IMG/VR virus record: IMGVR_UViG_3300006879_001214
Span: 1 to 38,900 of that record
Length of the DNA stretch: 38,900 nucleotides
Strand: one strand, 5' to 3'
From: a virus
Taxonomy: Duplodnaviria > Caudoviricetes
In this document: piece by piece, positions 2,197 through 37,087 of the stretch
How the letters are laid out: each line of letters opens with the position of its first letter
Position numbering within the stretch: the stretch's first letter is position 1
Program-made: the position numbers and the translations under genes
The notes under the pieces: model-generated
Told to the model about the DNA's origin: nothing
What the model saw: only the letters and a program-made list of their open reading frames with translations
Database searches by the model: none

Positions 2197-2219
2197 AAGG
2201 TAAAAGGGGAGATATTAAA

Positions 2220-2924
2220 ATGAAATTATCTAAAGCAACTTTATCATTATTGTTGGCAAGTGGAATTGTATTAGCTGGATGTGGGGATCAGGCAGAAGAG
2301 GCAGAGGATAACACTAAGCCAGATGGTGAAGTAAGCCAAGCAGATGTCCGAGAGACAACAGATGACCCACTAGAGTTTATCGACAAGACAAAAGATGAGA
2401 TGATCTTCATAGATGGTGCCAATGAGTATATAATAAAAAGCTATTACGTTAGTGATGAAACGGATGAACAGGGTTTCAATATTTATGAAGAGGATGGATT
2501 CACGTTTCGGTATGCCTTGGTTGAAACAGAAAATATAGCCAATGTAGATGCGGAGGGTAGCGAAGAAGTACAAATTTATGGTGAGATTATAAATGACACA
2601 GATGATACCTATTACTTTATGGAACGTATGCTAATCAAAACAGACGACAAAGAAGTATCAGAGGTTCAATTTGGGTTAAATGGTGCAGGTGCTGCCGATC
2701 AGAAGAATAAATTTATTGATTACTTTCCATTAGATTATGAGAATCCAGACAGCTTCACATTCGTATTAGCTGATCCATCTTTCCAAGGCGACTTCAAGGA
2801 TGATTTTGAAGAAGGGTATTTAGTGGAATATACCGATGAGGAATACGAGAAATACGAGGGAAATTTCAAGGGGTACATGAAAGATCACCTAGTAGTAGAG
2901 ATGGAGTTTCACAAAGAAGACTAA
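2220..2924 (+). CDS. Acidic lipoprotein of unknown function
   Basis: Signal peptide with LAGC lipobox; very D/E rich; 234 aa. Confidence 0.8.
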   Translation: MKLSKATLSLLLASGIVLAGCGDQAEEAEDNTKPDGEVSQADVRETTDDPLEFIDKTKDEMIFIDGANEYIIKSYYVSDETDEQGFNIYEEDGFTFRYALVETENIANVDAEGSEEVQIYGEIINDTDDTYYFMERMLIKTDDKEVSEVQFGLNGAGAADQKNKFIDYFPLDYENPDSFTFVLADPSFQGDFKDDFEEGYLVEYTDEEYEKYEGNFKGYMKDHLVVEMEFHKED

Positions 2925-2968
2925 ATATTTCTAAGCAAACTAATATAATCACAAAAGGGGATACGACA

Positions 2969-3202
2969 ATGACAACAGCAATAACAAATCCAACTATCAG
3001 CAAAACTGGCACTAAATATTGCGGTGAGATTACATTATCGGTGGCTTTGAGCAGTCCTGAGTCTATTCGATACATTCAGTCTATGTTGGACTCGGATGGT
3101 CTCACAGGTAGCTTAAAACTAACCACAGTAGATGGCCTGAGCCATAGCACAGAAGTGTTAGACATACATCAAACCGACTGGCAATCATTCGACGACATAT
3201 AA
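2969..3202 (+). CDS. Hypothetical protein
   Basis: 77 aa, RBS AAGGGG. Confidence 0.65.
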   Translation: MTTAITNPTISKTGTKYCGEITLSVALSSPESIRYIQSMLDSDGLTGSLKLTTVDGLSHSTEVLDIHQTDWQSFDDI

Positions 3203-3265
3203 AATTTAATTTGTCAGTGTTAATGGGGAAAATGTACCAATCAGAAAAATAGTTTGAAAACTAGG

Positions 3266-3294
3266 TTGTCTAATCTATCAAAATGTTATATAAT
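3266..3294 (+). promoter_or_regulatory. SigA-type promoter for early operon
   Basis: TTGTCT-17-TATAAT; AAATGTTATA (3281-3290) recurs inverted at 3365-3374 within palindrome ATGTTATAACAT. Confidence 0.6.
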
Positions 3295-3440
3295 GTATAT
3301 AGAAGTATATTTAAATTTGTGCATAAGTATAGCATTTTAATCTAACTTGATCCAGTTATTATGTTATAACATTTGTTATCTATTGTCAAGCACATTTAAG
3401 CATATTTCTAAAATAAAATTTTAAAAAGGGGAAATGTAAA

Positions 3441-3704
3441 ATGTTTACAGTTAACGGATTTAATTTTGATTCAGCGGCAGATTATATTAAGGCGCTTGAG
3501 GAACAGATTGAAGCATTCCATGAGCTCGTGCATAAGGAGGATTTACAGGAGGACTTACTGTACCACTTAGTGAACAATGACAGGCCTACTATGAACATTG
3601 GTGAGGCTATGCTTGAGGATTGTTATCTTGAGGTTACGATAAAGAAGCGTGAGCGTGATGATGTTGTGGAAATACAGGCAGCACAACCGAAGGATTTAAT
3701 CTAG
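3441..3704 (+). CDS. Hypothetical protein
   Basis: 87 aa, RBS AAGGGG, followed by GC-rich hairpin at ~3712-3734. Confidence 0.7.
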   Translation: MFTVNGFNFDSAADYIKALEEQIEAFHELVHKEDLQEDLLYHLVNNDRPTMNIGEAMLEDCYLEVTIKKRERDDVVEIQAAQPKDLI

Positions 3705-3770
3705 GATTCACAGGGGGCAGTTAACAGCTGTCCCATACTTATTATACATAATCAAAGGGGAGATTAAGCG

Positions 3771-4961
3771 ATGAACGAATTGACATTATCAGATGATTTG
3801 AACGTCATCACAGCGGAGATTAAAAATTACCAACAAAATATTGGTCAATCCATATTTGAAATTGGTAAACGCCTAAAACATGTTAAAGAAAATGATCTTG
3901 CTCATGGGGAATGGGGCAAGTGGTTAGAAAACATTAAAATGAACGATAGCTATGCTAGAAAATACATACACATATCCACTGAATTATGGGAGAACCGTTC
4001 AACGTTGAACGATTTGGGGATGTCAGCATTATACGAAATCTCTACGATGTCAGAAGAGGAGAGGGAAAAGGAGTACTCTCTTTCAAATGGAAAGATTAAA
4101 AAGCCAGTTGATATGACTGTTAAGGAGATCCGTCAGACTAAGCGTCAACTTAGCAACGAAGCACTGGAGGCAGCAATAAAATCAGTTGAGGCTGAATCAA
4201 TTGAACCTGAATCAATTGAAGGTGAAGAAGATAAACAAGAAATGTACGACGAATATCAAGCTCACATTGATCACTTGAATCAAGTAGAAGACGAAAACGA
4301 CAATTTTACACAGCAACTGGATAATATTAACCGAAAACTTTACGGTAAATTAAGAGACTTAAAGTTTTACGACCACTTAAACATTGCTTACTGGCTTTCC
4401 AAATTTACCAAAGAGAAGCAAAAGCAAATAGAGGATATTGAACTAAGCAGTAAATTTAAAGTCACCTTTTCTGATATCGATTCTTTTTATCAGCGTTACA
4501 TAAATTATACACCGATTAACGGAAAACAGATAAATAGGCTCAACCAGTTACAGTGGAAAAACGAGCAGTCCAGTTTCTTTGATAAAGTAAGCTTTTATGA
4601 TGACGATAGTTTTCATTCTAAAATAGGCAGTGCAAAAACAACAAATGAGATTGATAGTATTCTAGACGAATTTGAACAAGTGATTGAACAAAGTAGTAGG
4701 AAGAAGACAAACCAATCGAATAGTAATAACTCAAACTTTGATTGGAGTAGTTTATTTGGGAACACATCTACATCATCTATAGTCAACTACCGTGAAGAGT
4801 TGGGATTGTCTTCTACAGCATCAAACGATGAGGTGAAAAAAGAGTTTCGCAACTTAATGAAAGTTCTTCATCCTGATCATGGAGGCAATGCAAGATTACA
4901 GCAAAAATATAAAGAAATGTATGACGATTGGAGAAAAAGTATTAAAAATAAGTCGGCGTGA
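3771..4961 (+). CDS. DUF3102-like protein with C-terminal J-domain
   Basis: N-term EIGKRLKHVKENDLAHGEWGKWL typical of DUF3102; C-term LGLSSTASNDEVKKEFRNLMKVLHPDHGG with HPD motif. Confidence 0.8.
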   Translation: MNELTLSDDLNVITAEIKNYQQNIGQSIFEIGKRLKHVKENDLAHGEWGKWLENIKMNDSYARKYIHISTELWENRSTLNDLGMSALYEISTMSEEEREKEYSLSNGKIKKPVDMTVKEIRQTKRQLSNEALEAAIKSVEAESIEPESIEGEEDKQEMYDEYQAHIDHLNQVEDENDNFTQQLDNINRKLYGKLRDLKFYDHLNIAYWLSKFTKEKQKQIEDIELSSKFKVTFSDIDSFYQRYINYTPINGKQINRLNQLQWKNEQSSFFDKVSFYDDDSFHSKIGSAKTTNEIDSILDEFEQVIEQSSRKKTNQSNSNNSNFDWSSLFGNTSTSSIVNYREELGLSSTASNDEVKKEFRNLMKVLHPDHGGNARLQQKYKEMYDDWRKSIKNKSA

Positions 4962-5000
4962 AGCTTCGGCGAAAAGAAGGAATTAATCGCCCACAAAGTC

Positions 5001-5088
5001 TCTCTATATATTGAGGGGATATAAATTGCAAATAATAATGGAAATAATTGGTCACCAATTGTCTCTATATATTAGAGAGGTATAAATT
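5001..5088 (+). repeat. Imperfect 27-bp direct repeat TCTCTATATATT-R6/7-TATAAATT
   Basis: 5001-5027 and 5062-5088, with palindrome AATTGGTCACCAATT (5046-5060) between. Confidence 0.75.
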
Positions 5089-5109
5089 TAAAAAAGGAGA
5101 TGGAATGAG

Positions 5110-5295
5110 ATGGATAATAAACAATTTTTGTTTTGCTACAACTCAAGTTTATTTAGATATCTTACGGAAGAAAATAATTTCAATTACATAACAATTGCCA
5201 GAGAGCCTAAGAACAACAAAATGTTTTCATTATTTTACCGGTCGGATTCCCTCAACAGGAAACTAGCAGAATATAAGGGTCAGAAAAATGGGTAA
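5110..5295 (+). CDS. Small phage protein (DUF5659-like)
   Basis: 61 aa; F-x-CY...LFRYL...F-x-F-x-RS-x-x-L pattern; RBS AAGGAG. Confidence 0.6.
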   Translation: MDNKQFLFCYNSSLFRYLTEENNFNYITIAREPKNNKMFSLFYRSDSLNRKLAEYKGQKNG

Positions 5296-5479
5296 CAAAA
5301 GTTACTCTAATTCCGAGGGGTTCGGAATATGGGTAACAATAATTACCGTAATTTCTAACTGGTTCGGAATTAGGGTAAAAAAAGTTACCCGATTTACATA
5401 GATTACAGATAAGACCTTTGTTACAGATAAGACTATATATACAGATAAGATTACGCCAGCCCCGTTGGGGACTGGACGT
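5290..5479. repeat. Iteron array, candidate replication origin
   Basis: GGGTAAC-N4-GTTACCC-like palindromes at 5290, 5331, 5373; TACAGATAAGA at 5404, 5422, 5440; GC hairpin 5453-5479. Confidence 0.75.
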
Positions 5480-5528
5480 GTGAACGATTAACTCAAACTA
5501 TACTATTAAACTATGCGGAGGAATTAAC

Positions 5529-6272
5529 ATGCTACAAAGAAACTATTCAGACAAGCTACATATTAAAATTTACAACTCGATGATTGATGACAAGTCAGAT
5601 ATTAAACTAACACCGAGCGAGCTATACATCTATGCGCTGCTTTGTATTAATGCTACTTCAGATGATGACAGAATGATGCCTACTAGCGTTGATATGATTA
5701 ATTACATGTCACCATTCAGGTTTGCCACAAAGGATAATAACAATAAGAATCACATTAAAAAGGCGCTCACTGAACTAATGAGAAAAGATTATCTGCTGAT
5801 TGTCGATGATGGTATTCAGATAGATGACATTAAAAATAATACATTTCTTACATTGGAAATCAATCACGAAGCGTTAGATAACAAGTATGAACCACTTTAT
5901 TACAATGAATTTCGATTCTTGAGTAATCCTGATGAGGTATTCATTTACATAATATCAAAACGATTTACAGCCTTCTCAGAGGGATTTAAGGCTAGTTACA
6001 ACAGATGGGGAAGGTTACTCAATGTGAGTGACAAAACAGCGTCAAACAAGCTCAATGATGCTGAGAAAAACGGAGTTATCGAGGTTATCCGAGGTAAGTA
6101 TGAAGAGATCAACAGGCAGGAAATCAACTTATATTGTCATGTGGACTTGATGGGATTGAAGGATTTTGACGATGATGCTCAGGAAGAAGTTATGCAACCA
6201 AAAGTTAAGAAGTTGGCAATTGGTGAGAAGAAGATAAGTCCAGAGGAAGAAGCTAGAAGGGCATTTGGGTAA
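5529..6272 (+). CDS. Winged-HTH protein, putative replication initiator
   Basis: LTPSELYIYALL...IKKALTELMRKDYL and SYNRWGRLLNVSDKTASNKLNDAEKNGVI HTH-like segments; directly downstream of iterons. Confidence 0.55.
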   Translation: MLQRNYSDKLHIKIYNSMIDDKSDIKLTPSELYIYALLCINATSDDDRMMPTSVDMINYMSPFRFATKDNNNKNHIKKALTELMRKDYLLIVDDGIQIDDIKNNTFLTLEINHEALDNKYEPLYYNEFRFLSNPDEVFIYIISKRFTAFSEGFKASYNRWGRLLNVSDKTASNKLNDAEKNGVIEVIRGKYEEINRQEINLYCHVDLMGLKDFDDDAQEEVMQPKVKKLAIGEKKISPEEEARRAFG

Positions 6273-6377
6273 TTGGGTTAGGAGTAGACATACATAAAAG
6301 GTCAAGGTCAGTCAAAGTCAAACTTTAAGCATTACATAAAAAACTAAACTAACAAACTAAAAAGGGGAAATTTAATC

Positions 6378-9002
6378 ATGGCTAACAATATCAATCAAAA
6401 CGTATATATTCAATCAATCGAGGCAGCTTCAATCTATACTCATACCACACGATCAACTAAAATTGATCCATCATACGTGGGTATGATTCCATATAGCTTA
6501 GAATTAATTAAATTACATAAAGTAGGATTAACTACAAGCAGCACAAAGACTAATTCTAAGATACTCAGCGATGACATAATCAACGTTAAATTTAATCAAA
6601 AAGTAAAGTCGGGCACTGAGATAATCAATATCTATGAAAATAAAATAGATGAGTTAACCGTACATAGCGAACTAACCGATCAAGAAGAAGCTTATCAGAT
6701 ATACTTAGAGGACAGCATGCAAGCGATTAGACAAGAGTTACATGAAGACAAATGGAATCAACTTAGCAATGATGAATTAAGGCAGGAAATGTATCTAAAT
6801 GGCTTTATGTTGGATGGTGTACAATATGTTGTGTACAAACGGTCATCATCTAAAAGTAGAACAGGCCAGTGTTTATTTATCCGCAAAGAGCTACACGATG
6901 AGATGATTGATTGGAGCAGAATGTATTTGCCATTCGCAGAAGATCAGGAGGTTGATTTGGCTAGTCTGTTAGCTTATGAGTCATTAGTAGGTAGTAGCAT
7001 TGAGGGCACGGTTAAAATCAATCCTAAGCATATTTTGTTGGTTGATGATGTGGACAGCAAATTTACTCAAAAGGCAAATGTAGTTAAAGCTGGAAGCAAT
7101 GGATATTTAGATAGTGTGACTGACGATAATGCAGAGATGAGTAATAGTTTATTTGATGGAGAATCATTGTTGGAATCTGAGTATTTTCCAGAAGGTAAAA
7201 GTATGATATTGCTTAGAAATCATATGATGAAGTCAGCAGCATTTAACACTAATATTCAACAGTTTCTTAAAGATAATTGTCCAGAAGGGATCAACTTTGA
7301 TGAGTGGGAAATAGAAGATATGTACGGGGATACTATATTGGCATCATCTATCCATATGATAACAACTCCTTCTTCCATTAAAGCATTAAAATTTGCTGAT
7401 GTGATTGGCTCTGAGCAGGACATGTGGAATTACTGGAAGGAATTAGTTGAGTTTGAAGGAAGCATATTTGGAGTCTGTAAAACTGAATCAGAAAGCACTA
7501 GAGGCTATGATGCGGAAGGTAATGTGTTACAGCAGACTAGCTACCAAATGCTTAACAGTATGCCCCTGAGCAAGGATGATGTTGCTAATTTGAGTCAGTT
7601 TGAAAAGGACTACATAGATGGATTAAAGAATGATGATGATAAATTTATTGAGCATATTAGCAAAGGGATAAATGAAGTTAATAGCAATAAGATGTTTGTG
7701 GATCTGGTTGCTGTCAATAAGAAGATCGTTAATACTAAGGTGTTTAGAGACTTCAGGAAAGCTGAGATTAACAGGCATGTTACTCATGTAAAGAAAGGTA
7801 AGTTAAGGCTGAATGGAGACTACTGTGTGATGTTGGGCAATCCAATGGAGATGTTGAAGCATAGTATTAAGAAGTTTGATGTAAACAGCTCAGGGTTAGC
7901 TCTAAATGACAATCAGATACATACTAAACTATTCGATTATGATAAAGAAATAGTTGGCTTCAGGAATCCTCATACTAGCCCATCAAACGTGCTAGTAGCT
8001 GAGAATGTGGCTAATGAAGATATAGACAAATATTTCAACTTAAGCAAGAATATTGTTGTGGTCAATGCTGTTAGATTCGCTATACAAGACACGCTAAGCG
8101 GTGCGGACTATGATAGTGATACGGTTATGTTAGTTGATGATAAAAGGTTACTCAGTGTGGCTAAGAGTTGCCTACAGTACCCAGTATGTATAAATGAGGT
8201 AGACAGTGAGAAAAAGACTTATACATTGAGCAAGGTTGATATGGTTGTTATCGATAACCAACTTTCATTAAGCCAAAAATACATAGGCCGAGTGGTCAAC
8301 TTAGGGCAAGAATTGATGTCATTATACTGGGATGGATTAGCAAATGGGAGTAGTAAAGATGACGTGGTTGATTTAATGGGCAAGGTTGATGTTATGACGG
8401 TGTTAAGTGGAATCGCTATTGACTTGGCTAAGAAAATGTACAACTTGGATATTGGAAAAGAGATTGCGTATGTGGAAAAGGTTGCAGATATGAGGAAGAA
8501 TAAGCCTGCATTCTTTAAGTTTATCAGTCAAAGTAAGACGATCAATAGTCGAGTTGAATTGTATGATTGTCCAATGGATTATTTGGGTGAGATGATGACT
8601 GGCTTACCCGATGCTAAGCGTAGAGAAAATATTAATCTGATTGATCTGTTGGTTAAAAAGAATGCTCAAAAGGGTAACAGGACTCAGCAGAAAAACATTA
8701 TAGATTATGTGGAAAAGATGAACAAGAAAATTAGTGAGATCCATTTATCTGAAGAGGATAAAGAAGAAAGGTTTGAGGCATTAGACGACACTGTTAAGTA
8801 TTATGAGTATTTTATTGAGAAAATGAAAGTCAATGAGAATACAATGTTCTCGGTATTGAGTAGTATGATTAAAAAGAATAGGTCAAATGTAACTGTAAGA
8901 CTCATGAATGTACTGTTTGTGACACAGAAAGAAACATTCTTGAAAGCATTCAAAGATGATGGGAAAGAAAACATTAACTTAATATTTTCTGAGATTGCAT
9001 GA
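6378..9002 (+). CDS. YonO-like single-subunit (double-psi beta-barrel) RNA polymerase
   Basis: 874 aa; YKRSSSKSRTGQCLFI, FDGESLL, LRNHMMKSAAF, FRNPH and metal-binding LSGADYDSD (DxDxD, nt 8106-8120). Confidence 0.88.
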   Translation: MANNINQNVYIQSIEAASIYTHTTRSTKIDPSYVGMIPYSLELIKLHKVGLTTSSTKTNSKILSDDIINVKFNQKVKSGTEIINIYENKIDELTVHSELTDQEEAYQIYLEDSMQAIRQELHEDKWNQLSNDELRQEMYLNGFMLDGVQYVVYKRSSSKSRTGQCLFIRKELHDEMIDWSRMYLPFAEDQEVDLASLLAYESLVGSSIEGTVKINPKHILLVDDVDSKFTQKANVVKAGSNGYLDSVTDDNAEMSNSLFDGESLLESEYFPEGKSMILLRNHMMKSAAFNTNIQQFLKDNCPEGINFDEWEIEDMYGDTILASSIHMITTPSSIKALKFADVIGSEQDMWNYWKELVEFEGSIFGVCKTESESTRGYDAEGNVLQQTSYQMLNSMPLSKDDVANLSQFEKDYIDGLKNDDDKFIEHISKGINEVNSNKMFVDLVAVNKKIVNTKVFRDFRKAEINRHVTHVKKGKLRLNGDYCVMLGNPMEMLKHSIKKFDVNSSGLALNDNQIHTKLFDYDKEIVGFRNPHTSPSNVLVAENVANEDIDKYFNLSKNIVVVNAVRFAIQDTLSGADYDSDTVMLVDDKRLLSVAKSCLQYPVCINEVDSEKKTYTLSKVDMVVIDNQLSLSQKYIGRVVNLGQELMSLYWDGLANGSSKDDVVDLMGKVDVMTVLSGIAIDLAKKMYNLDIGKEIAYVEKVADMRKNKPAFFKFISQSKTINSRVELYDCPMDYLGEMMTGLPDAKRRENINLIDLLVKKNAQKGNRTQQKNIIDYVEKMNKKISEIHLSEEDKEERFEALDDTVKYYEYFIEKMKVNENTMFSVLSSMIKKNRSNVTVRLMNVLFVTQKETFLKAFKDDGKENINLIFSEIA

Positions 9003-9133
9003 TTTGATAGTATTTATGGGCAAAAAGTAGGATTGTTGAAAGTTTCCATATGATAGGGAACTGGAATGCAAGTGTATACCAATTTGTTGCAGCATTGAAT
9101 GCCAAAGAGCAAAGTAGATGACTTTTCCTTATG

Positions 9134-9180
9134 AAAGGAGTGGGTGATTAATTCATCTGCTCCTTTATTTTATTATTTCT
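9134..9180 (+). terminator. Intrinsic terminator downstream of RNA polymerase
   Basis: AAAGGAGTGGGTGA-TTAAT-TCATCTGCTCCTTT followed by T-rich tract. Confidence 0.65.
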
Positions 9181-9269
9181 TTTTAAAATTACATAATAAT
9201 ATCCATTTTTATCATAACATAATGTATATACAATAGTCAAGGGTAAACTGTAATATACATTTAACATAG

Positions 9270-9487
9270 TTTATAAAAGGATCGGCGAACGCTGACATTG
9301 ATGAGCATTGTTGCCAGCCGATTCCTTTAAATATATTTTTTCTTTATTGATTTTATATATATTCCTCCATGAATATTTAAATCAATATTTCCCCGTAACA
9401 CACTACGCAAGATTTCCCCAAATTTAATAGTCAATAAATTGGCAACTAACATTATCCCCTTTTGTTGGTTGCTTTTTTGTTGACTAA
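9270..9487 (+). ncRNA. Candidate sRNA with exposed C-rich motifs
   Basis: Hairpins 9276-9328, 9345-9387, 9394-9407, 9428-9486; CUCC/UCCCC motifs in loops and linkers; U-run at 9473-9478. Confidence 0.45.
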
Positions 9488-9509
9488 AAAAATTTAAGGA
9501 GATAAGAAA

Positions 9510-10088
9510 ATGAACGAGAAAACAGCAGAAGTAGAAAAATTTAGAGATGATTTAATCACAGTAGATGGAGCGGAACTATATCCAGTGCCGGGACACAGTA
9601 ATTATTATGTAGACTTGGAGGCAGGCAGAATATGGAATAATAAGAAGGAGTTTTGGTTGAGAGCTAATCCGAATAGTCTGGGATATTGTTATGCTACCAT
9701 TTCCAGTGATTTTGGTGAATCTGTAAGGATCAGCGTACACAACATTATAATGATGGCTTACATGGGCTGTGACAAGTCGGCTTGGAGAGCTAAGGGATTA
9801 GAAGTGCATCATATAGACAATGTAACATCAAACAACTCAGTATTAAATTTGGCTCTAGTGACTAGGGCTCAGCAATATCAGTGTCCGAAAACTAAGCAGA
9901 CATTGGCTAACAGAAGCACTAAGCGATTGACTAAAGATGATGTGATTGCTATTAAGACTGATTTTGCAGATTGGGAAGGTACAAAAGGTGCTTTTTACAA
10001 CAAGTGGGCAAGTGAGCTGGGTATGCATTCGAGAGCTATTCAGGATGTTGTATTGGGAAATTCACATAAGGATGTTGAAGTCTGCTAG
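9510..10088 (+). CDS. HNH endonuclease-domain protein (NUMOD4-like N-term, HNH_3, C-term HTH)
   Basis: VPGHSNYYV...GRIW; VHNII; EVHHIDNVTSNNSVLNL; distal N/H position looks degenerate (RAQQY). Confidence 0.8.
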   Translation: MNEKTAEVEKFRDDLITVDGAELYPVPGHSNYYVDLEAGRIWNNKKEFWLRANPNSLGYCYATISSDFGESVRISVHNIIMMAYMGCDKSAWRAKGLEVHHIDNVTSNNSVLNLALVTRAQQYQCPKTKQTLANRSTKRLTKDDVIAIKTDFADWEGTKGAFYNKWASELGMHSRAIQDVVLGNSHKDVEVC

Positions 10089-10227
10089 TTAATTGATACA
10101 TACATAAAAGGGATTGGGGAAAAGCGATCTCCTTGGTAGTAGAGTTTATTACTGTTTTTAGTATTTTGTAGTATAATGAAAATAAATGGTTAAACTTTAC
10201 TACACATTATCAGGGGGATTAGTGTTA

Positions 10228-11016
10228 ATGCATTCGTTTTTCGGGTTTATTAAGAAGTATTGGAGTGTTGGTTGGAAAGCGCTTAGGGAGTGGAGAAAAA
10301 CCTGGGGAAGTATTATAAGTCTACTTATCCCTGTCGTCATTACATTTCCTAGTATAAATGAGTATTTAGATGGAAGCGGTTATCTTATTGCTCTTGTTAT
10401 TCTTTTGGTATTAATTGGATGGTTACAATCCAATAAGAATATCTTGGGACACTCTGAACTTGAAAGTCAATTGGATCGAATTGAAAATCAACGGGATACT
10501 CTTGAAGCGAATCTACAGTCTGTCCCGACCCGGATTGTAAAGCACATGTTTCAAGATATTGGTCTTAATTCTAAAGATAGGATTACCATTTATAGATATC
10601 ATGATGACCAGTTTATAAATATTGGCAGACACTCAGATAATGTTGAATTTGCAAAAAAGGGTAGGTCAGCATATCCTAAAGATGAAGGGTTTATTGGTCA
10701 ATGTTGGCGGGAAGATTATGTGTATGTTGAAAGGCTTCCTATCTATGACAAAAAACCAGAAAGATACATTACTCAAGTGTCTAAAAAGGCTGATATTAAA
10801 AAAGGTGTATTGAGAGAAATGCCTATGAAAAGTAGATGCTATTATTGTAAAAAAATTTTTGATACAAAAGGTATCGCATTTGCGGTGATTGTCGTTGAAA
10901 CCACGAAATATTCACTTGGTGATAAAAAAGACAAAGTGGATCAAATTTTAAATGATCAGTTTGGAAAGCTTCTAATTGAATCAATTGAAATCAATCTACC
11001 TCTAGGGAAAGGGTGA
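10228..11016 (+). CDS. Two-TM, coiled-coil, GAF-like protein; putative toxin/effector of Panacea module
   Basis: Two hydrophobic segments, heptad region, RITIYR...EGFIGQCW...AVIVVE; start moved to ATG after AGGGGG (track 10186); overlaps next gene. Confidence 0.6.
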   Translation: MHSFFGFIKKYWSVGWKALREWRKTWGSIISLLIPVVITFPSINEYLDGSGYLIALVILLVLIGWLQSNKNILGHSELESQLDRIENQRDTLEANLQSVPTRIVKHMFQDIGLNSKDRITIYRYHDDQFINIGRHSDNVEFAKKGRSAYPKDEGFIGQCWREDYVYVERLPIYDKKPERYITQVSKKADIKKGVLREMPMKSRCYYCKKIFDTKGIAFAVIVVETTKYSLGDKKDKVDQILNDQFGKLLIESIEINLPLGKG

Positions 11017-11492
11017 TGAAAATGGCAAAGATTAAAGAAGTTATTTATTATTTCTTAATAAACTATCCTTATAAAGATGAATTATCTAAAACAAGACTTA
11101 CAAAAATGATTTATTTGGCTGACTGGGAAAGTGCTAAGAGGTGCGGAAAACAGATAACTAAAATTAATTGGTATTTTGACCATTACGGCCCTTATGTCCC
11201 AGATGTTTATCAAGTTGCTTTAAAGGATAAAAAAATAAATATAAAGAAAGGATTTTCAGCGTTTGGGAGTCCTAAAGAAACGATTGAGTTTGATAAGGGG
11301 TATGCTGATTACTCAGTCGATAACGTGAGATTGAATATAGAACAAGTAGAAATTTTAGATAAGGTTATTGAAGACACCAAGTATCTAAATTGGAATGATT
11401 TCATTAGTTATGTTTATTCCACAGAGCCAATTGAATCACAAGAAAAATACAAAAAACTGGATTTAGTTAAACTTGCTGAAGAACCGATGTAA
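11013..11492 (+). CDS. Panacea/SocA (DUF4065) antitoxin-family protein
   Basis: KTRLTKMIYLADW...GKQIT...W-x-x-x-HYGPY signature. Confidence 0.85.
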   Translation: MMKMAKIKEVIYYFLINYPYKDELSKTRLTKMIYLADWESAKRCGKQITKINWYFDHYGPYVPDVYQVALKDKKINIKKGFSAFGSPKETIEFDKGYADYSVDNVRLNIEQVEILDKVIEDTKYLNWNDFISYVYSTEPIESQEKYKKLDLVKLAEEPM

Positions 11493-18645: not shown

Positions 18646-19878
18646 ATGGATTTGCTAGATGCAAAAATTAAATTAAAAGAAACACGTTCCCTATTTAACG
18701 AGAAACGTGATGAAACTGAGGAAGCTATTGAGGCTGGTGATGTTGACAAAGCTAAAGAATTAAAGGCAGAGGTAGATAAGATTCGCACTGATTTGGATGA
18801 ATTGACTACCAAAGTTGAAGAGTTAGAAGCAGATAAAGACGAGGACGAACAAGAGGAACAAGATGATGAACAAACAGATGAAACAAATACTAACGAAGGT
18901 GGAGAAGAAAGAATGGAAAATCGACAAATTTTAGGTGGTAATAATGAAGTAAGTGAGGAAGTACGAGCGTTTCAAAATTTTGTAGAGACACGTGAAATTG
19001 ATGGTGACAATTTAAAAACTGACTCAGGCTATGTTGTTGTACCAGAGGAAGTGGTTAACAACATCCTAAAAATTAAACAAGCAGAGTTTAACTTAGATAA
19101 ATACGTCAATGTTAAGCCAGTTGGAAATGGCGCTGGTAAGTATCCAGTTATTCGTGAGGGAGCGGTTCAAGGTTTACCGACAGTAGAAGAGCTACAAGAG
19201 AACCCAAAACTTGCTGTATCTCCGTATTTTGAATTGGCATACGACATTAAAACACATCGTGGATTCTTTAGAGTTTCTCAAGAATTAATCGAAGATGCAG
19301 CAGTTAACGTGCTTGCTGAGTTGAATGAGTATATCGGTAAACTAGTTGCAGCTACTCGAAACAAAGCTATTTTAGATGCAATTGAAAAAGGAACACAAGG
19401 TGAAGGCGGAACAAATGTTAAGTTCAAACGTGTGTCTGCTGAAGGTGTAGATGGAATTAAGGATGTACTTAATTTACAAGTATCACCTAACTATACTAAT
19501 ACGGTTGCTATCATGAACCAATCAGCTTATAACGAGATCGACAAGCTTACAGACCGAAATGGAAGGTATTTACTACAAGACAATATCTCTGCACCATCTG
19601 GAAAGCAATTGCTAGGCGCACCAGTCGAGGTCATCAGCGATAAAGTTTTGAAGTCTAAAGCAGACAAGCACCCTGTCATTGTTGGTGATTTGAAATCTGG
19701 TATTACCTTGTTTGAACGTAGCCAATATCAAGCTAAATGGGAAGATTATATGCATTTTGGAACAGGTGTAATGGTATCTGTACGTCAAGATTGTCGTATT
19801 GCTGATAAAGAGGCTGCAATTGTAATTGACTTCTCTGCACCAGTTGAACAAGAGCCAGAAGAACCAGCAAGTAAATAA
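18646..19878 (+). CDS. Major capsid protein, HK97 fold
   Basis: Coiled-coil delta domain, GYVVVPEE, LTDRNGRYLLQ, LLGAPV; RBS AAGGAG. Confidence 0.95.
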   Translation: MDLLDAKIKLKETRSLFNEKRDETEEAIEAGDVDKAKELKAEVDKIRTDLDELTTKVEELEADKDEDEQEEQDDEQTDETNTNEGGEERMENRQILGGNNEVSEEVRAFQNFVETREIDGDNLKTDSGYVVVPEEVVNNILKIKQAEFNLDKYVNVKPVGNGAGKYPVIREGAVQGLPTVEELQENPKLAVSPYFELAYDIKTHRGFFRVSQELIEDAAVNVLAELNEYIGKLVAATRNKAILDAIEKGTQGEGGTNVKFKRVSAEGVDGIKDVLNLQVSPNYTNTVAIMNQSAYNEIDKLTDRNGRYLLQDNISAPSGKQLLGAPVEVISDKVLKSKADKHPVIVGDLKSGITLFERSQYQAKWEDYMHFGTGVMVSVRQDCRIADKEAAIVIDFSAPVEQEPEEPASK

Positions 19879-19953
19879 TCTATCACATTGAAACACAGTA
19901 GCCATCTATCATTAGGTGGCTTATTAGTGTTATGAAAGGAGAGGATGTGATTG

Positions 19954-20271
19954 ATGGATTTAGCAATGATTAAGACACATCTAAGGCTTAGTCATGATCT
20001 CGAAGATGAATTAGTACAAATGTATATGGAATGGTCTAAAGACACTGTGCTATCCTCTGTATCAACCTCTGAAGACATTGACACAGACTATTTAGAGTCT
20101 AATAAGCAATTTCAAAAGGCTGTTATCATGCTGACTAGCTTCTACTATGAAAACAGGTTAACTATATCAGACAAGAGGCACATTGAAATGCCTTATGGTG
20201 TATTAGATGCAATCCAGAAACTACGTGGCGACTCTAAGGTATTTTTAGAGGTGACAGAAGATGAAGTTTGA
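19954..20271 (+). CDS. Head-tail connector (gp6-like)
   Basis: IKTHLRL...EDELV, AVIMLTSFYYENR. Confidence 0.88.
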   Translation: MDLAMIKTHLRLSHDLEDELVQMYMEWSKDTVLSSVSTSEDIDTDYLESNKQFQKAVIMLTSFYYENRLTISDKRHIEMPYGVLDAIQKLRGDSKVFLEVTEDEV

Positions 20272-20587
20272 TTACTCTAAGTTAAAAACTCCAGTAACAT
20301 TCTACAAAATGAAATCAACCTCAGAAAATGGTATGCCGTCTAAGCCTAAACCAGTTAAATTTTATCAATGTTGGGCACATATAGAAACTGTTAGTTTAAA
20401 GGATTACCAAACTGCTATCAGCAACAATACACAACATCATATCAAGATATTTATTCGTGATTATGATGGAATTGATAACAAAATGCAGGTTAAGTATAAC
20501 AACAAATTCCATAATATTGTGTCTATAATGCCTAGTTATGGTAACAGTAATTTTACAGTTGTCGTAGCAGAGGCGGTGGATGTATGA
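20261..20587 (+). CDS. Head closure/head-tail adaptor
   Basis: Position; CWAHIE, IFIR, MQVKY motifs. Confidence 0.82.
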   Translation: MKFDYSKLKTPVTFYKMKSTSENGMPSKPKPVKFYQCWAHIETVSLKDYQTAISNNTQHHIKIFIRDYDGIDNKMQVKYNNKFHNIVSIMPSYGNSNFTVVVAEAVDV

Positions 20588-20976
20588 GCGTAAAAATTAC
20601 AGGAGTTAATGAGATTATAGCAGCTTTAGCTAAGAAGGAAGCCGATATACGTAAAGCAGGTTTAAAAGCTAACACAGCTGGTGCTAAGATAGTTGCGGCA
20701 GAGTTGGAGAAGACTGTGCCAAGAAGTGGAATAACAGAATCAAAGTTGCCATTTTTGAAGGATACGGTATCTATAAGTAACAACAGAACAGATAGATATA
20801 CTATGCAATCTTATGTTGCTGTAGGCTTTCCAAAGAGTACAAGTTATCGTGTTCACTTTGTGGAGTTTGGGACAATTAAGCAATCGCCATACGGATTCAT
20901 GACAAAAACTGTACAAACCACTGCTAAAGATGTTCAAAAAGCTATGATAGCTGAAGTTAAGAAGGTGCTTAGATGA
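20584..20976 (+). CDS. HK97 gp10-like tail completion protein
   Basis: ITGVNE, HFVEFGT...PYGFM. Confidence 0.85.
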   Translation: MSVKITGVNEIIAALAKKEADIRKAGLKANTAGAKIVAAELEKTVPRSGITESKLPFLKDTVSISNNRTDRYTMQSYVAVGFPKSTSYRVHFVEFGTIKQSPYGFMTKTVQTTAKDVQKAMIAEVKKVLR

Positions 20977-21368
20977 GTGAACAGATGTATTTAAGAGATA
21001 TAGGAACAGAGGTATATCAGCTAATCGTCAACGATGAACAGTTGAAAGAGTTATTACCAGCAGATCATGTATTTCAATATCACATACCGGAAGAGTTTCA
21101 GGAGAAGTCACCTATTGTTCGTATCACAATGATCAATATGCTACCTAACAATTATGCTGACAATGAGCAATTAGCATGGGACTATACGATACAGATTGAT
21201 GTGTGGAACGAAGGTAGTCCATTCATTATTGCACAGCACATTAACAGGATAATGAAGGGACTTAACTTCCGGCAATCAACTCCGATATTTGAGTTTGATA
21301 TTGATACAGCAATGCTTAGAGATGGCAGACGATACGAAGGAAAAATAATGATAAATGAAGATATGTAA
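20973..21368 (+). CDS. Tail terminator (DUF3168-like)
   Basis: Position before major tail; IQIDVW. Confidence 0.78.
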   Translation: MSEQMYLRDIGTEVYQLIVNDEQLKELLPADHVFQYHIPEEFQEKSPIVRITMINMLPNNYADNEQLAWDYTIQIDVWNEGSPFIIAQHINRIMKGLNFRQSTPIFEFDIDTAMLRDGRRYEGKIMINEDM

Positions 21369-21438
21369 AAGAAGGATTCACTCAATCGGGTGAGTCTTTT
21401 TTATGTAAAAAATTAAAATGAGAAGGAATGATTTAATA

Positions 21439-22026
21439 ATGGCTAAAGAGAAAAATAAGTATTCAGGTAAAGTTGGAATTAAAGGATTTACATACGCTAT
21501 CCAAAATAGTGACAGCAAAGATGGTGTTACATACGGTGAGCCTAAATACGTTCAATATGTCCAATCAATTGGAATTGAGACTGAGCAAGAAATTGTAAAG
21601 GCTTATGGAGATAATACTGTAGCAGAAATGGTTACATCGACTGGGGTAACAACTCTAAACATGGGATTCCATTCACTTCCACTGTCAGTTAAACAGGAAT
21701 TACTGGGACTGGAAGAAGAGGACGGATTAACCATTCAAAAATCAAATGTAACAGCTCCATACGTGGCAATTGCGCTTGAGCAAACTAAAGCTGATGGATC
21801 ATCTGAATTCGTTGGATTGACAAAAGGAATGTTTACTCTTCCGGGAACAGAAGGGGCTACAAAAGAAGATACAACTGAGTTTCAAAATGAAGAAATTGAA
21901 GGTGAATTCTCAGCACGTCAATTTGATGATATTGCCCAGATTTTTGCAGATGTTCCTAAGGACGATGCAGAAGATTTGAAAGAAAAGTTCATGGCAAAAT
22001 TATTTCAGACTGAGGTGTCTCCCTAA
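21439..22026 (+). CDS. Major tail protein (phi13 family); ends in CCC-TAA
   Basis: AYGDN, APYVA, GLTKGMF, TKED...FQ. Confidence 0.9.
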   Translation: MAKEKNKYSGKVGIKGFTYAIQNSDSKDGVTYGEPKYVQYVQSIGIETEQEIVKAYGDNTVAEMVTSTGVTTLNMGFHSLPLSVKQELLGLEEEDGLTIQKSNVTAPYVAIALEQTKADGSSEFVGLTKGMFTLPGTEGATKEDTTEFQNEEIEGEFSARQFDDIAQIFADVPKDDAEDLKEKFMAKLFQTEVSP

Positions 22027-22197
22027 CCCCGATGAGGGCGATGAGGACAAACTTGAAGAAGTTGTAGAGCTTGACACAGAAGAACAATACAATTTACTAG
22101 ATTGATACAAGGGGGCTACAAAGCCCTCTTTCTTAATGTAAACAATAATGTACACACTATTAAAATAATTACAAAAAATAAGGGAGTATGAAGAAAT

Positions 22198-22551
22198 ATG
22201 GCTAAGAAAACACTCACATTGGTGACTGGAATTGATGAAGAAAAGAACGAATTGATTACACAGGATTATCCGTATCCTATTTTTGTTAAAGGCAGCTTAG
22301 TTAAAAAAGCAATTGATCTAGGTGCCCAATTAGAAAAATTAGGTGAGGAAAATGTAGACAGTGGAATTGTAGATGATCTAGCAGACTTTGCAGTTGAGTT
22401 ATACAACAAACAATTTACACGTGATGAGTTGATTGATGGTACAGATGCTTCAGATTTGTTTACAAAGCTAACCGGTATTCTAGGCTCAGTAATGGGCGGA
22501 GATGAGGGAAACGCTCAGACAAAAAAGTTTATCGAGGAGAAGAAAGCTTAA
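22198..22551 (+). CDS. Tail assembly chaperone (gpG-like)
   Basis: Between major tail and tape measure; LYNKQFTRDELIDG. Confidence 0.85.
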   Translation: MAKKTLTLVTGIDEEKNELITQDYPYPIFVKGSLVKKAIDLGAQLEKLGEENVDSGIVDDLADFAVELYNKQFTRDELIDGTDASDLFTKLTGILGSVMGGDEGNAQTKKFIEEKKA

Positions 22552-22739
22552 CAGAAGAAGACTTTTCATGGGTTAAGCAGAAAAAAGCTTTTGATGCATT
22601 AGTTAAGAATTTGCTAACCGATGGAGGCTATAAAATGCATGAAATTTACGAGATGGATGTCTTTTATTTTATGGATGTCCTGCAAGAAGAAAAAGAAGAG
22701 GTGCAAGAACGCTCATTATTTGCAGCGTTTGGCAAGTAG
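22521..22739 (+). CDS. -1 frameshift extension of tail chaperone (gpGT-like)
   Basis: A AAA AAG at 22521-22527; -1 frame open to TAG 22737-22739 (...HEIYEMDVFYFMDVL...SLFAAFGK). Confidence 0.8.
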   Translation, partial: KKVYRGEESLTEEDFSWVKQKKAFDALVKNLLTDGGYKMHEIYEMDVFYFMDVLQEEKEEVQERSLFAAFGK

Positions 22740-22799
22740 TAGCTACTCAATTTTATTGGGTGGCTATTTTTATTTTATCACAAGAAAGGAGGGCGTTAA

Positions 22800-27092: not shown

Positions 27093-27099
27093 TAGATAA

Positions 27100-27948
27100 A
27101 TGAGACGATTGACTTATGAAAACAGTCGAGGTGAACAGGTTGAGTTTTATCTGTCACCTCTGATCATTGAATCATTAGAAGGAATTGGCGAGGTTGATGC
27201 AGACATACAAAGTCAGCAGTCACCTTATCAAGACGGAGATAATTATATAGATACATTATTACAACCTAGATTTATTGAGTTAGAAGGTTCTATTTTAAAG
27301 ACTGATCTAACAGATATCAAACAGTACAGGAAGCATATATTACGTGTATGTAATCCAAAGCTGGGATTGGGTAAGATTACACTAGAATTAGATGGCGATA
27401 TTAAGGAGATAATGGGAGTGCTTGATGGCTCACCAGTATTTCCAGAACGCTCACAGGATGTATGGCAAAAGTTTATGATCGATTGGAAGTGTCCTGATCC
27501 ATACTGGAAGGATCTGAATAGCACTTCTAAGCCATTGCAGTCTTATGTAGGCAATTTTAAGCTACCAACAACCTTTCCTATTCAATTGGGGATAAGTGGT
27601 GACAGGACACTGTTAATCAATGAAGGTGATGTACCAACTCCAGTTAGAATTGATGTCAGCGGACAAACAACAAATCCACAAATCATCAATAGAACAACAG
27701 GAGAATATATCAGAATTAACCGTACAATCGCAGATGACGAAATACTACATATCAATACAGCAAGTGGACAACAACGCGTGGAAGTATATCGAGACAATAC
27801 GATTGAGCAGGGATTTGGATATTTGGATCATAACTCTGAATTATTTATGTTAGAAGTTGGAGAAAATGAGATTGAACATATTGCGGATGCAGGCAATGCT
27901 AAAGCAATGGTAGCTGTTAGTTGGCAAAGCAGATATACAGGAATGTAA
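27100..27948 (+). CDS. Distal tail (Dit) protein
   Basis: SPYQDG, CPDPYW, NEGDVPTP, LEVGENEI. Confidence 0.88.
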   Translation: MRRLTYENSRGEQVEFYLSPLIIESLEGIGEVDADIQSQQSPYQDGDNYIDTLLQPRFIELEGSILKTDLTDIKQYRKHILRVCNPKLGLGKITLELDGDIKEIMGVLDGSPVFPERSQDVWQKFMIDWKCPDPYWKDLNSTSKPLQSYVGNFKLPTTFPIQLGISGDRTLLINEGDVPTPVRIDVSGQTTNPQIINRTTGEYIRINRTIADDEILHINTASGQQRVEVYRDNTIEQGFGYLDHNSELFMLEVGENEIEHIADAGNAKAMVAVSWQSRYTGM

Positions 27949-28007
27949 TAGTAACGCAGAAGCACTCCATTCGGGGTGCTTTTTATATTGAGAAAGGAAA
28001 TGATTAG

Positions 28008-28976: not shown

Positions 28977-28991
28977 GGAAGGTGAATTATA

Positions 28992-34367: not shown

Positions 34368-34531
34368 GTAAAGAGCGACTACTGTGTTAGTTGCTCTTTT
34401 TTCTATCAAAAAGAGAAAGGGTGGTTAGGTGAATATTCCTAAAATATATAATGACCCTGTTGTCGCTAGGATGCGCAGCGGGAGAGCGGGGTCACCGTTT
34501 AACGGCAAAACAATAAGGAGATGGATAAAGT

Positions 34532-34978: not shown

Positions 34979-35199
34979 TGGCTAAAATCACAGTGAAGAT
35001 GAATGATGGAACAACTCAAATTGTAGAGGTGGCAGATTATGATGCACAAGAAATTGCAGATATGTTGAACGACAATCAAAACAACATGTGTGCGATTGGA
35101 ACTGGTGCTAGTGCAGTTGTGGTGCAACGTTACTCAGTGGTTAGAGTGACTCCAGTTGATTTAGTAGACGATTCTGACGATGAAGACGGCAGCCTTTAA
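34978..35199 (+). CDS. Hypothetical protein
   Basis: 73 aa, TAATG overlap. Confidence 0.7.
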   Translation: MAKITVKMNDGTTQIVEVADYDAQEIADMLNDNQNNMCAIGTGASAVVVQRYSVVRVTPVDLVDDSDDEDGSL

Positions 35200-35226
35200 T
35201 TAGGTTGCTTTTTTTATTTAGGAGGG

Positions 35227-35774: not shown

Positions 35775-35853
35775 TTACATAAATTTACATAATTTTAGGA
35801 TTGTCATTAATTTGGCAGTCCTATTTTTTATGGGAAAATGAGGAGAATGTTAA

Positions 35854-37083: not shown

Positions 37084-37087
37084 CATT

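What the first reader, a model, noticed from the sequence alone, without database searches (positions are those of the whole stretch)
9270..9487. Candidate multi-target sRNA displaying anti-Shine-Dalgarno motifs matching early-gene RBSs
Seen: four C-rich motifs in loops or linkers. TATCCCCTTTTGT (9453-9465, mostly hairpin loop) is the exact 13-nt complement of ACAAAAGGGGATA, RBS of gene 2969; ATATTTCCCC (9385-9394) pairs 10 nt with GGGGAAATGT of gene 3441; AGATTTCCCC (9410-9419) pairs 10 nt with GGGGAAATTT of the RNA polymerase gene (one G-U each); ATTCCTCC (9361-9368) matches GGAGGAAT of the initiator. Early genes mostly use AGGGGA RBSs, structural genes AGGAG/GGTGA. Established: RNAIII, RsaE/RoxS and FsrA use C-rich motifs on G-rich RBSs. 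Inference: a late-made RNA shutting off early (and host) translation, giving feedback on the polymerase. Caveat: anti-SD matches are partly generic.
Basis: partly seen in the sequence, partly recalled or inferred. Interest (0 to 1): 0.7.

Follow-up and report, generated by a model that had tools for sequence, protein, structure and literature searches.

The report
Phage RNA throttling its own polymerase
Just after the gene for its own RNA polymerase, this phage carries a predicted folded non-coding RNA whose exposed C-rich loops are complementary to the ribosome-binding sites of the polymerase gene and other early genes, a match that recurs in related phages, so it likely acts as a feedback brake on the polymerase once late transcription starts.

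Summary
9270-9487 folds strongly on the + strand (z -7.3) and exposes four C-rich motifs. 6 of 7 early ribosome-binding sites (RBS) have a perfect complement of 8 nt or more to it, against 0 of 34 later genes and 21 of 267 Bacillales genes. AAAGGGGA occurs five times on the + strand, each at an early RBS.

In 17 of 43 divergent phages with the same YonO-like polymerase, a hairpin with an anti-Shine-Dalgarno loop lies in the same region. Its loop fits its own polymerase RBS better than foreign ones (p 0.0001; 0.006-0.04 in the strictest subset). The fit to other early genes rests mainly on two phages.

Best reading (0.5): the RNA is part of the polymerase-made late leader and represses polymerase translation in trans. 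Expression, discreteness and host shut-off are not shown.

It follows the polymerase gene in 43 loci, behind a candidate polymerase promoter.

The parts
9276..9486 (+). RNA-2, the finding: four-hairpin non-coding RNA (H1 9276-9328, H2 9345-9387, H3 9394-9407, H4 9428-9486)
   Evidence: fold z -7.31 on + against -2.13 on -; single hairpins z -3.6, -4.1, -2.1, -8.6; no Rfam match here
9452..9462 (+). H4 apical loop UUAUCCCCUUU; complement of the AAAGGGGA RBS of genes 2220, 2969, 3441, 3771 and 6378
   Evidence: a nearly identical loop on a different stem in L068
9410..9419 (+). single-stranded C-rich linker; best predicted partner of the polymerase RBS (10 bp, net -10.7 kcal/mol)
9385..9394 (+). 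C-rich linker; 10-bp complement (one G-U) of the RBS of gene 3441
9361..9368 (+). H2 loop motif, half paired; complement of the RBS of gene 5529
   Evidence: net -5.4 kcal/mol, weak
9473..9478 (+). U6 run behind the inner stem of H4; possible 3' end for host-polymerase transcripts
   Evidence: read from the sequence; not listed by the terminator scan, which allows loops of at most 8 nt; function inferred
9053..9132 (+). RNA-1: conserved three-way-junction RNA with a palindromic loop (GUAUAC 9074-9079) and a GAA/AGUA loop-E-like motif (9097-9099 / 9113-9116); the loop-E label is recalled
   Evidence: covariance model, 43 hits; 20 of 20 pairs with double changes; palindromes in 35 of 41 loops
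9042..9058 (+). conserved DNA motif GT-N4-ATATG(G/A)-W-AGRG; candidate promoter of the phage polymerase
   Evidence: best site of the window under a matrix built without the window's site; among the top 3 sites of the locus in 19 of 27 loci that lack RNA-1
9134..9166 (+). intrinsic terminator that would stop host-polymerase read-through from the early operon
9211..9240 (-). sigma-A-type promoter-like site pointing back at RNA-1 and the candidate late promoter
   Evidence: 10 of 12, with TG; a site of 10 of 12 or better in 11 of 43 loci against 3.5 in shuffles, largest 9 of 60
6378..9002 (+). YonO-like single-chain RNA polymerase gene, 874 aa; its RBS (AAAGGGGA from 6361) is the main predicted target
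   Evidence: invariant D577, D579, D581, R529, P531; 23% over 223 aa to SPbeta YonO, E 8e-5; RdRP domain on relatives
2951..2963 (+). RBS of early gene 2969; 13-nt perfect complement of 9453-9465
3425..3437 (+). RBS of early gene 3441
3754..3761 (+). RBS of early gene 3771 (DUF3102 and DnaJ domains)
2203..2210 (+). RBS of early gene 2220
9510..10088 (+). HNH endonuclease gene, first gene behind the RNA; its RBS is not a predicted target (net -0.7 kcal/mol)

Best explanation
The stretch 9276-9486 is a predicted four-hairpin non-coding RNA whose C-rich loops and linkers are complementary to the ribosome-binding site of the phage's own YonO-like RNA polymerase gene and of five other early genes, and it likely represses their translation in trans as a negative feedback once the polymerase starts late transcription. 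Steps: (1) Shown: fold, accessibility and complementarity as computed; enrichment of such hairpins behind the polymerase gene in relatives; better fit to the own polymerase RBS. (2) Inferred: host-polymerase transcripts of the early operon stop at 9134-9175; the phage polymerase starts at the motif near 9050 and reads through RNA-1 and the terminator, so RNA-2 lies near the front of the late transcript and is made in proportion to polymerase activity. (3) Inferred: 8-13-bp loop and linker duplexes cover the Shine-Dalgarno sequence of the polymerase mRNA, which damps accidental polymerase expression in the lysogen and ends the early phase in the lytic cycle. (4) Inferred: this phage has widened the target range because five early genes share the rare RBS AAAGGGGA, while late genes use other RBS words and escape. 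Whether RNA-2 acts as part of the leader or as a processed or terminated small RNA is open.
For: Window: 6 of 7 early, 0 of 34 later and 21 of 267 Bacillales RBS have a perfect complement of 8 nt or more (Fisher p about 2e-6 and 3e-6). Net energies with opening costs are -7.7 to -10.9 kcal/mol for five early genes, the polymerase among them, and 0 to -6.1 for seven later genes. The only C-rich hairpin loops found in the window's intergenic gaps are in this RNA. Family: hairpins of 8 bp or more with a C-rich loop make up 20 of 318 behind the polymerase gene (17 of 43 loci) against 10 of 786 upstream and 7 of 888 downstream; + strand more stable in 15 of 17. Own against foreign polymerase RBS: whole leaders p 0.004 (33 loci), 0.004 and 0.0009 (43 loci); the 17 loops p 0.0001 by length and 0.0015 by energy, and 0.0008 and 0.010 without this window and L068. 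A random other gene of the same phage reached the effect in 0 of 400 draws. Control non-coding DNA, and the next gene in cis, show no such effect. Matching types are scattered over the polymerase tree. L098 has four C-rich motifs around two unrelated hairpins (z -7.35). SPbeta YonO starts late transcription upstream of an unannotated non-coding RNA (PMC5467207, passages).
Against: No expression data. Duplexes in relatives are short (4-9 nt perfect), and 26 of 43 loci have no C-rich-loop hairpin. The own-RBS effect is not seen with a length score that allows G-U (p 0.15) and is not significant in the 11 held-out loci alone (p 0.075 and 0.35). It weakens in the strictest 13-locus set (p 0.006 and 0.044; random own gene 8 and 27 of 400). 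Genes behind the polymerase show a small own-phage effect by energy (p about 0.03), so part of the signal is a phage-wide RBS habit. 25 of 120 host-type RBS also pair at -8 kcal/mol or better. The SPbeta leader is not enriched in C-rich words (9 against 5.8; 32 of 300 shuffles), and the promoter matrix does not rank the SPbeta sites among its top 8. RNA-2 is not conserved in sequence, so no stem covariation could be counted for it. Two earlier scan notes judged similar loops to be generic mirrors of RBS (unchecked).
Confidence: 0.5

Rival explanations
1. General anti-Shine-Dalgarno sponge: the loops mimic the 16S rRNA tail and lower translation of any G-rich RBS, of the host included; the early-gene matches follow from RBS habit.
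For: 25 of 120 host-type RBS pair at -8 kcal/mol or better; small own-phage effect for later genes by energy, p about 0.03; short duplexes; earlier notes e1-5692796 and e1-8234502 (unchecked).
Against: The polymerase-RBS effect exceeds a random own gene in 400 of 400 draws. The window's main loop matches AAAGGGGA, found in 3 of 267 host-type RBS, not the common GGAGG; a general sponge would be expected to use the common word.
Confidence: 0.2
2. Same pairing, other timing: a discrete host-polymerase sRNA of about 260 nt (from about 9222 to the U6 run at 9478) made in the lysogen to keep polymerase and early genes silent, in the manner of phage immunity RNAs (P1 C4, P4 CI; recalled).
For: A weak + strand promoter-like site at 9188-9215 (9 of 12); U6 behind the H4 stem; the targets are lytic genes.
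Against: + strand sigma-A sites are at or below chance in relatives (2 of 43 against 3.65); the long hairpins of most relatives have no U run behind them (by eye). Other sigma factors were not tested.
Confidence: 0.13
3. Cis element of the late leader: hairpins for RNA stability, RNase III processing or protein binding, with C-rich loops as protein sites and no base pairing in trans.
For: Stems of 23-40 bp in nine relatives resemble RNase III substrates (recalled); position in a leader.
Against: Does not explain why loop sequence follows the own polymerase RBS; no fit to the next gene's RBS (p 0.46-0.85).
Confidence: 0.12
4. The motifs are RBS of minus-strand peptides, or chance.
For: A 41-aa minus-strand ORF (9452-9327) starts behind motif 4; some C-rich words between RNA-1 and the antisense promoter in relatives do look like minus-strand RBS with a start codon (by eye).
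Against: The spacing to ATG is 2 nt; 11 of 17 loops have no minus-strand start within 2-11 nt, and only L068 has an ORF of 20 aa or more at a usable spacing; no Pfam match; folding favours +; shuffles 0-4 of 2000.
Confidence: 0.05

Closest known systems
RoxS/RsaE, FsrA and RNAIII (C-rich-motif sRNAs of Bacillota; PMC8464778 and PMC4152353, passages)
   Same: Several unpaired C-rich motifs (RoxS has four) that pair with G-rich RBS of several mRNAs; UCCC loop motif.
   Different: Those are chromosomal, discrete, host-transcribed RNAs that act on metabolic or virulence genes. This one is phage-encoded, has no Rfam match, likely lies in a late leader, and is aimed at the polymerase that likely makes it.
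SPbeta YonO late start and its 'unannotated non-coding RNA' (PMC5467207, passages and supplement passages)
   Same: Single-chain two-barrel polymerase followed by non-coding RNA at the head of the late operon; the paper leaves the promoter sequence undefined.
   Different: YonO is only 23% identical over 223 aa; the SPbeta leader is about 1.3 kb, lies behind yonN and is not enriched in C-rich words; model R1 gives no SPbeta hit; no function was assigned to that RNA in the passages read.
Phage antisense immunity RNAs P1/P7 C4 and P4 CI (recalled; only a search listing seen)
   Same: Phage RNA that pairs in trans through short loops with phage mRNA to control the lytic switch.
   Different: Those act in the lysogen on antirepressor or replication operons of enterobacterial phages; no Rfam match here; the target here is a phage RNA polymerase.
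HIV-1 DIS and oskar palindromic kissing loops (PMC7357161, passages), for RNA-1 only
   Same: A 6-8-nt palindrome behind one or two purines in an apical loop; one phage even has GUGCAC.
   Different: RNA-1 is a bacterial-phage three-way junction; dimer formation is inferred from sequence only.

Membership tests
RsaE/RoxS, FsrA, RNAIII families | match to the family's covariance model | tested here: not met
   no Rfam hit near 9000-9500 at E up to 5; none at gathering score in 7 related loci
C-rich-motif base-pairing sRNAs (working class) | unpaired C-rich motifs in loops or linkers | tested here: met
   three motifs unpaired at their C runs, one half paired
C-rich-motif base-pairing sRNAs (working class) | complementarity to the Shine-Dalgarno regions of several mRNAs | tested here: met
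   6 of 7 early RBS with 8 nt or more; energies; computed only
C-rich-motif base-pairing sRNAs (working class) | discrete transcript with its own promoter and terminator | tested here: inconclusive
   U6 run at 9473-9478 and a weak + promoter-like site; no enrichment of + sigma-A sites in relatives
C-rich-motif base-pairing sRNAs (working class) | repression of target translation through the motif, with compensatory rescue | not testable with these tools
   needs reporters; the own-against-foreign RBS test is an indirect stand-in
Type I toxin-antitoxin antitoxin | overlapping opposite-strand ORF for a small toxin with a usable RBS | tested here: not met
   41-aa ORF with 2-nt spacing, no counterpart at most related loops, no Pfam match
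C4 antisense RNA / P4 CI | match to the curated family model | tested here: not met
   family features recalled
YonO-like single-chain RNA polymerase (gene 6378-9002) | DxDxD catalytic motif and RxP motif; homology to YonO | tested here: met
   invariant D577/D579/D581 and R529/P531 in 37 relatives; weak BLASTP match to YonO covering these motifs, E 8e-5
YonO-like single-chain RNA polymerase (gene 6378-9002) | DNA-dependent transcription of the late genes | not testable with these tools
   position ahead of the terminase-to-lysis cluster fits
Palindromic kissing-loop dimer elements (RNA-1) | apical-loop palindrome kept through sequence change | tested here: met
   35 of 41 distinct loops against 7.3 in shuffles, largest 16 of 3000; control arm 4 of 38
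Palindromic kissing-loop dimer elements (RNA-1) | dimer formation through the loop | not testable with these tools
   needs native gels with loop swaps

The most novel reading that the evidence does not exclude
Phages with single-chain YonO-like polymerases carry a protein-free two-RNA control cassette at the start of the late transcript. RNA-1 dimerises through a phage-specific palindromic loop and so counts late transcripts or licenses the polymerase to read through terminators; RNA-2 shuts off synthesis of the polymerase by masking its RBS. The motif at 9042-9058 is the so far undefined promoter of this polymerase class.
Probability: 0.2. Interest if true: 0.85.

Novelty: new variant of a known kind. 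Interest (0 to 1): 0.68.

Why it matters
How YonO-type polymerases find their promoter was left open by the paper that described them (PMC5467207), and I found no paper on how they are switched off. This locus gives three testable handles within 450 bases: a candidate promoter motif, an RNA family tied to the polymerase gene with a likely dimerising loop, and an RNA whose loops follow the polymerase's own ribosome-binding site across divergent phages. An RNA polymerase repressed by its own transcript through anti-Shine-Dalgarno pairing, with early genes sharing a rare RBS word that marks them for shut-off, would be an unusual design for the early-to-late switch and a compact self-limiting expression module.

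Tried and rejected
- Rfam: five weak hits in the window, none near the finding; none in 7 related loci.
- DNA similarity of 9000-9520 to cultured phages: 6 short chance matches. nhmmer of RNA-2 against 71 loci: one weak hit, L068, E 3.6. The single-protein scan of viral contigs found nothing; the alignment did.
- Sequencing runs: no RNA holder listed, one DNA run that may be the source; no reads were laid. This is no evidence on expression.
- RNAalifold on the plain MAFFT alignment of RNA-1 found only 3 pairs; the structure was then given by hand and the sequences fitted to a model, so the pair counts lean towards it. The window's RNA-1 alone does not fold better than shuffles (z +0.70).
- Cis masking of the next gene's RBS: rejected. 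Minus-strand peptides: rejected.
- The minus-strand columns are confounded by incompletely masked RBS and were not used.
- In one search a spurious minus-strand ORF call masked the L068 hairpin; masking was changed for onward, and L012 was dropped for a miscalled start. L082 and L093 have miscalled starts and were kept.
- SPbeta: C-rich enrichment not significant; promoter matrix and model R1 miss its sites. The by-eye likeness is a lead only.
- L063 and L113 (90% identical polymerases) show no clear paired change of loop and RBS.
- No solved structure matched the polymerase profile.
- Literature: searches showed no paper on either RNA. The supplement of PMC5737381 could not be read, and files 1, 2 and 4 of PMC10690425 were not searched, so either RNA may stand among their catalogued candidates.

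Full report
Setting. The window is a 38.9-kb virus record of a temperate tailed phage: integrase at 1-912, an HTH repressor-like gene on the minus strand (1628-1861), early genes from 2220 to 9002, then HNH, moron-like, packaging, head, tail and lysis genes. Gene 6378-9002 is a YonO-like single-chain RNA polymerase. It has invariant D577/D579/D581 and R529/P531 among 37 aligned proteins, an RdRP domain on several relatives and a weak match to SPbeta YonO, 23% over 223 aa, E 8e-5. Named relatives are mostly from Bacillus, Paenibacillus and Clostridium species at 48-59% identity. The host is unknown.

The observation. The stretch folds at -58.8 kcal/mol, z -7.31, on + and z -2.13 on -. The C runs at 9391-9393, 9416-9419 and 9456-9459 are unpaired; the 9361-9368 motif is half in a stem. 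Six of seven early RBS have a perfect complement of at least 8 nt that includes three G-C pairs (9, 13, 9, 8, 4, 8, 9 nt). Among the 34 called + strand genes behind the RNA none does, and among 267 genes from 18 stretches of five Bacillales genomes that carry related prophages 21 do (Fisher p 1.6e-6 and 3.5e-6). In 2000 dinucleotide shuffles of the RNA, 4 reach a 13-nt match, 3 reach six of seven, and none has four motifs. AAAGGGGA stands five times on the + strand of the window, each time at an early RBS. With opening costs on both sides the best duplexes are -8.4 (2220), -10.6 (2969), -7.7 (3441), -10.9 (3771), -2.9 (5110), -5.4 (5529) and -10.7 kcal/mol (polymerase), against 0 to -6.1 for seven later genes. 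Five of the matches share one word and are not independent, and I chose the early set; three tiny ORFs with 6-7-nt matches were left out.

Relatives. An alignment of the polymerase gave 21 genome loci, 50 viral loci and 29 metagenome loci, and whole-genome searches added more. RNA-2 is not conserved in sequence, but its kind is. C-rich 5-mers stand at 4.19 per kb in non-coding DNA 150-1200 nt behind the polymerase stop, against 1.74 upstream and 1.43 further down (59 loci). I kept polymerases under 70% identical with at least 200 nt of non-coding leader: 32 of 52 representatives, plus 11 loci found later. Among these 43, hairpins of 8 bp or more with a C-rich loop are 20 of 318 in the leader (17 loci), 10 of 786 upstream and 7 of 888 downstream. 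Nine relatives have stems of 23-40 bp, most with loops such as CUUCUCCCUC or CUCUCCCUUU. L068 has nearly the window's loop on another stem, and L098 repeats the layout of four motifs in loops and linkers (z -7.35). The + strand is the more stable in 15 of 17.

Is the match specific? I scored every leader against every polymerase RBS, removed row and column means, and permuted. Whole leaders fit their own polymerase RBS better than foreign ones: p 0.004 by perfect length (33 loci); 0.013 by energy of accessible motifs and 0.15 by length with G-U (32 loci). Control non-coding DNA gave 0.36, 0.81 and 0.46, and late RBS 0.16-0.98. The 11 held-out loci gave a similar effect by energy (p 0.075) but little by length (p 0.35); all 43 gave 0.004 and 0.0009. 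With the 17 loops alone (one per locus, picked by loop composition; for the window and L067 I picked one of two), the own polymerase RBS won at p 0.0001 and 0.0015, and at 0.0008 and 0.010 without the window and L068 (30 tests in all). Other early genes gave 0.013 and 0.022, falling to 0.25 and 0.16 without those two. Later genes gave 0.09-0.22 by length and about 0.03 by energy; the next gene gave nothing. A random other gene of each phage reached the polymerase effect in 0 of 400 draws. In a 13-locus set without the window, L068 and one of each of the two closest pairs, p was 0.006 and 0.044 and the random gene reached the effect in 8 and 27 of 400. On the polymerase tree the matched types (G4 with C4, GGGAG, GGAGG, GAGGAG) are scattered, and the window and L068 are not sisters; no formal phylogenetic correction was made. 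The conserved target therefore appears to be the polymerase mRNA; the wide early range is a trait of this phage and L068. The effect is real in these data but modest, and 26 of 43 loci lack such a hairpin.

When would it be made? A DNA motif GT-N4-ATATG(G/A)-W-AGRG lies a short way behind the polymerase stop. A matrix from 42 other loci ranks 9034-9058 first in the window and ranks a site behind the stop among the top 3 in 19 of 27 loci that lack RNA-1 (the anchor consensus was drawn by eye with the window in view). Earlier scan notes report a conserved DNA signal at this spot (unchecked). A terminator at 9134-9166 would stop host read-through. Sigma-A-like sites between RNA-1 and RNA-2 point backwards in 11 of 43 loci (3.5 in shuffles) and forwards in 2. 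In SPbeta, YonO starts the late operon upstream of an unannotated non-coding RNA and its promoter is undefined (PMC5467207, passages). A word GATAATnGTCAT occurs twice in SPbeta 56-90 kb, behind yonO and between the paper's two PYonO primers, but my matrix does not rank these sites, so that link is a lead only. The eight strongest terminator-like hairpins in 19000-38900 are all on the + strand, six of them between late genes from capsid to endolysin, which suggests that the phage polymerase reads through them (inference). Late synthesis of RNA-2 is thus the simplest reading, not a shown one.

Between motif and terminator (9053-9132) lies a conserved three-way junction. A model from 30 loci found 43 hits in 100 sources (1.69 Mb), one per locus, 13 of them new; 42 start 21-113 nt behind the polymerase stop and one 849 nt behind it, past an inserted gene; none fell in 17 host stretches of 20 kb. 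Pattern scans of all viral contigs hit only contigs already known to hold the polymerase (6 of 6; 2 of 2), and the model hit 2 of 151 genomes, both just behind the polymerase gene. All 20 pairs show double changes; the covariation score is 0.67 against 0.28 in shuffles and at most 0.25 when slid (the alignment was fitted to the structure). The P2 loop holds a Watson-Crick palindrome of 6 nt or more in 35 of 41 distinct loops (shuffles 7.3, largest 16 of 3000), with 13 different central hexamers, of which two (ATTAAT, CAATTG) lie off the usual position; a control arm has 4 of 38. Complementarity kept at the two central bases cannot serve a hairpin within one strand, so loop-loop dimerisation as in HIV-1 DIS or oskar (PMC7357161, passages) is the likely reason; a palindromic DNA site for a protein is the rival. 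Many large Paenibacillus phages keep only a short terminal hairpin. No Rfam family matches.

Comparison and novelty. RNA-2 is predicted to work like RoxS/RsaE, FsrA and RNAIII, which pair C-rich motifs with RBS (PMC8464778 and PMC4152353, passages), but it is not a member of these families by Rfam. The review also notes that the one FsrA pairing shown in vivo did not use the C-rich regions, a caution against reading targets from motifs alone. Ten literature searches showed no phage RNA that represses its own polymerase this way and no description of RNA-1. The library lacks most subscription journals, and the candidate catalogues of PMC5737381 and PMC10690425 (passages seen) could not be searched in full. 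PMC8270828 (passages) adds nothing on the RNA. Earlier scan notes describe anti-SD loops and palindromic loops in other phages, so both devices recur; their joint placement at a YonO-type late start was not among the notes returned.

Verdict. Real feature; new variant of a known kind; feedback on the polymerase is the best reading at 0.5, with a general sponge (0.2), a lysogen-phase sRNA (0.13) and a cis element (0.12) as rivals. Interest 0.68, lifted by RNA-1 and the promoter candidate, held down by the lack of expression data and the short duplexes.

Noticed in passing
window 9053-9132 and 42 related loci: RNA-1: three-way-junction RNA without Rfam match, with a variable but palindromic loop and a GAA/AGUA motif, found only behind YonO-like polymerase genes; worth a study of its own.
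   Followed up: yes
window 9042-9058: Conserved motif behind the polymerase stop, also in phages without RNA-1; candidate promoter of this polymerase class.
   Followed up: partly
window 9211-9240 (minus strand): Sigma-A-like promoter facing RNA-1, enriched in relatives (11 of 43). In several relatives a minus-strand RBS with a start codon and an unconserved very short ORF follows it (L030, L033, L055, L056, L061, L062, L066; by eye). It may keep the late promoter quiet in the lysogen.
   Followed up: partly
L073:5170-5250 and L073:4430-4460 (SPbeta, minus strand): GATAATnGTCAT occurs behind yonO and between the published PYonO primers; behind yonO a hairpin with GAA and AGUA resembles a reduced RNA-1 by eye, but model R1 and the promoter matrix do not find it.
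   Followed up: partly
L004, L020, L026, L029, L063, L076 and others, 10-70 nt behind the polymerase stop: An imperfect DNA palindrome of the type CCYTTGATATATAAGGGTTT just upstream of the promoter-like motif; absent or degenerate in the window.
   Followed up: no
window 19900-37821: Eight strong + strand terminator-like hairpins in or just behind the late cluster, with only one promoter-like motif upstream; suggests that the phage polymerase ignores intrinsic terminators.
   Followed up: no
L004, L028, L038, L047, L112, leader region: A small recurring element CATGTCG(G/T)GA(T)GACAC just before the first leader gene.
   Followed up: no
L001, L032, L043, L122: Reduced RNA-1 that keeps P1 and the GAA/AGUA arm but lacks the palindromic arm; L001 seems to have a second promoter-like motif about 170 nt further on.
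   Followed up: no
window 10186-11492: A 276-aa predicted membrane protein without family match and a SocA/Panacea antitoxin-like gene between HNH and the packaging genes; possible toxin-antitoxin or defence moron.
   Followed up: no
window 5300-5450: Short direct repeats (GGTTCGGAAT, GGGTAA..AA, TACAGATAAG) upstream of gene 5529, which has a weak Rep3_N hit; possible replication origin iterons.
   Followed up: no
L045:5350-5680: tRNA-like sequences directly behind the polymerase gene region of a 112-kb phage (by eye, not scanned).
   Followed up: no
L075:4912-5760: An endonuclease-like ORF (GIY-YIG type by eye) lies between the polymerase stop and RNA-1.
   Followed up: no
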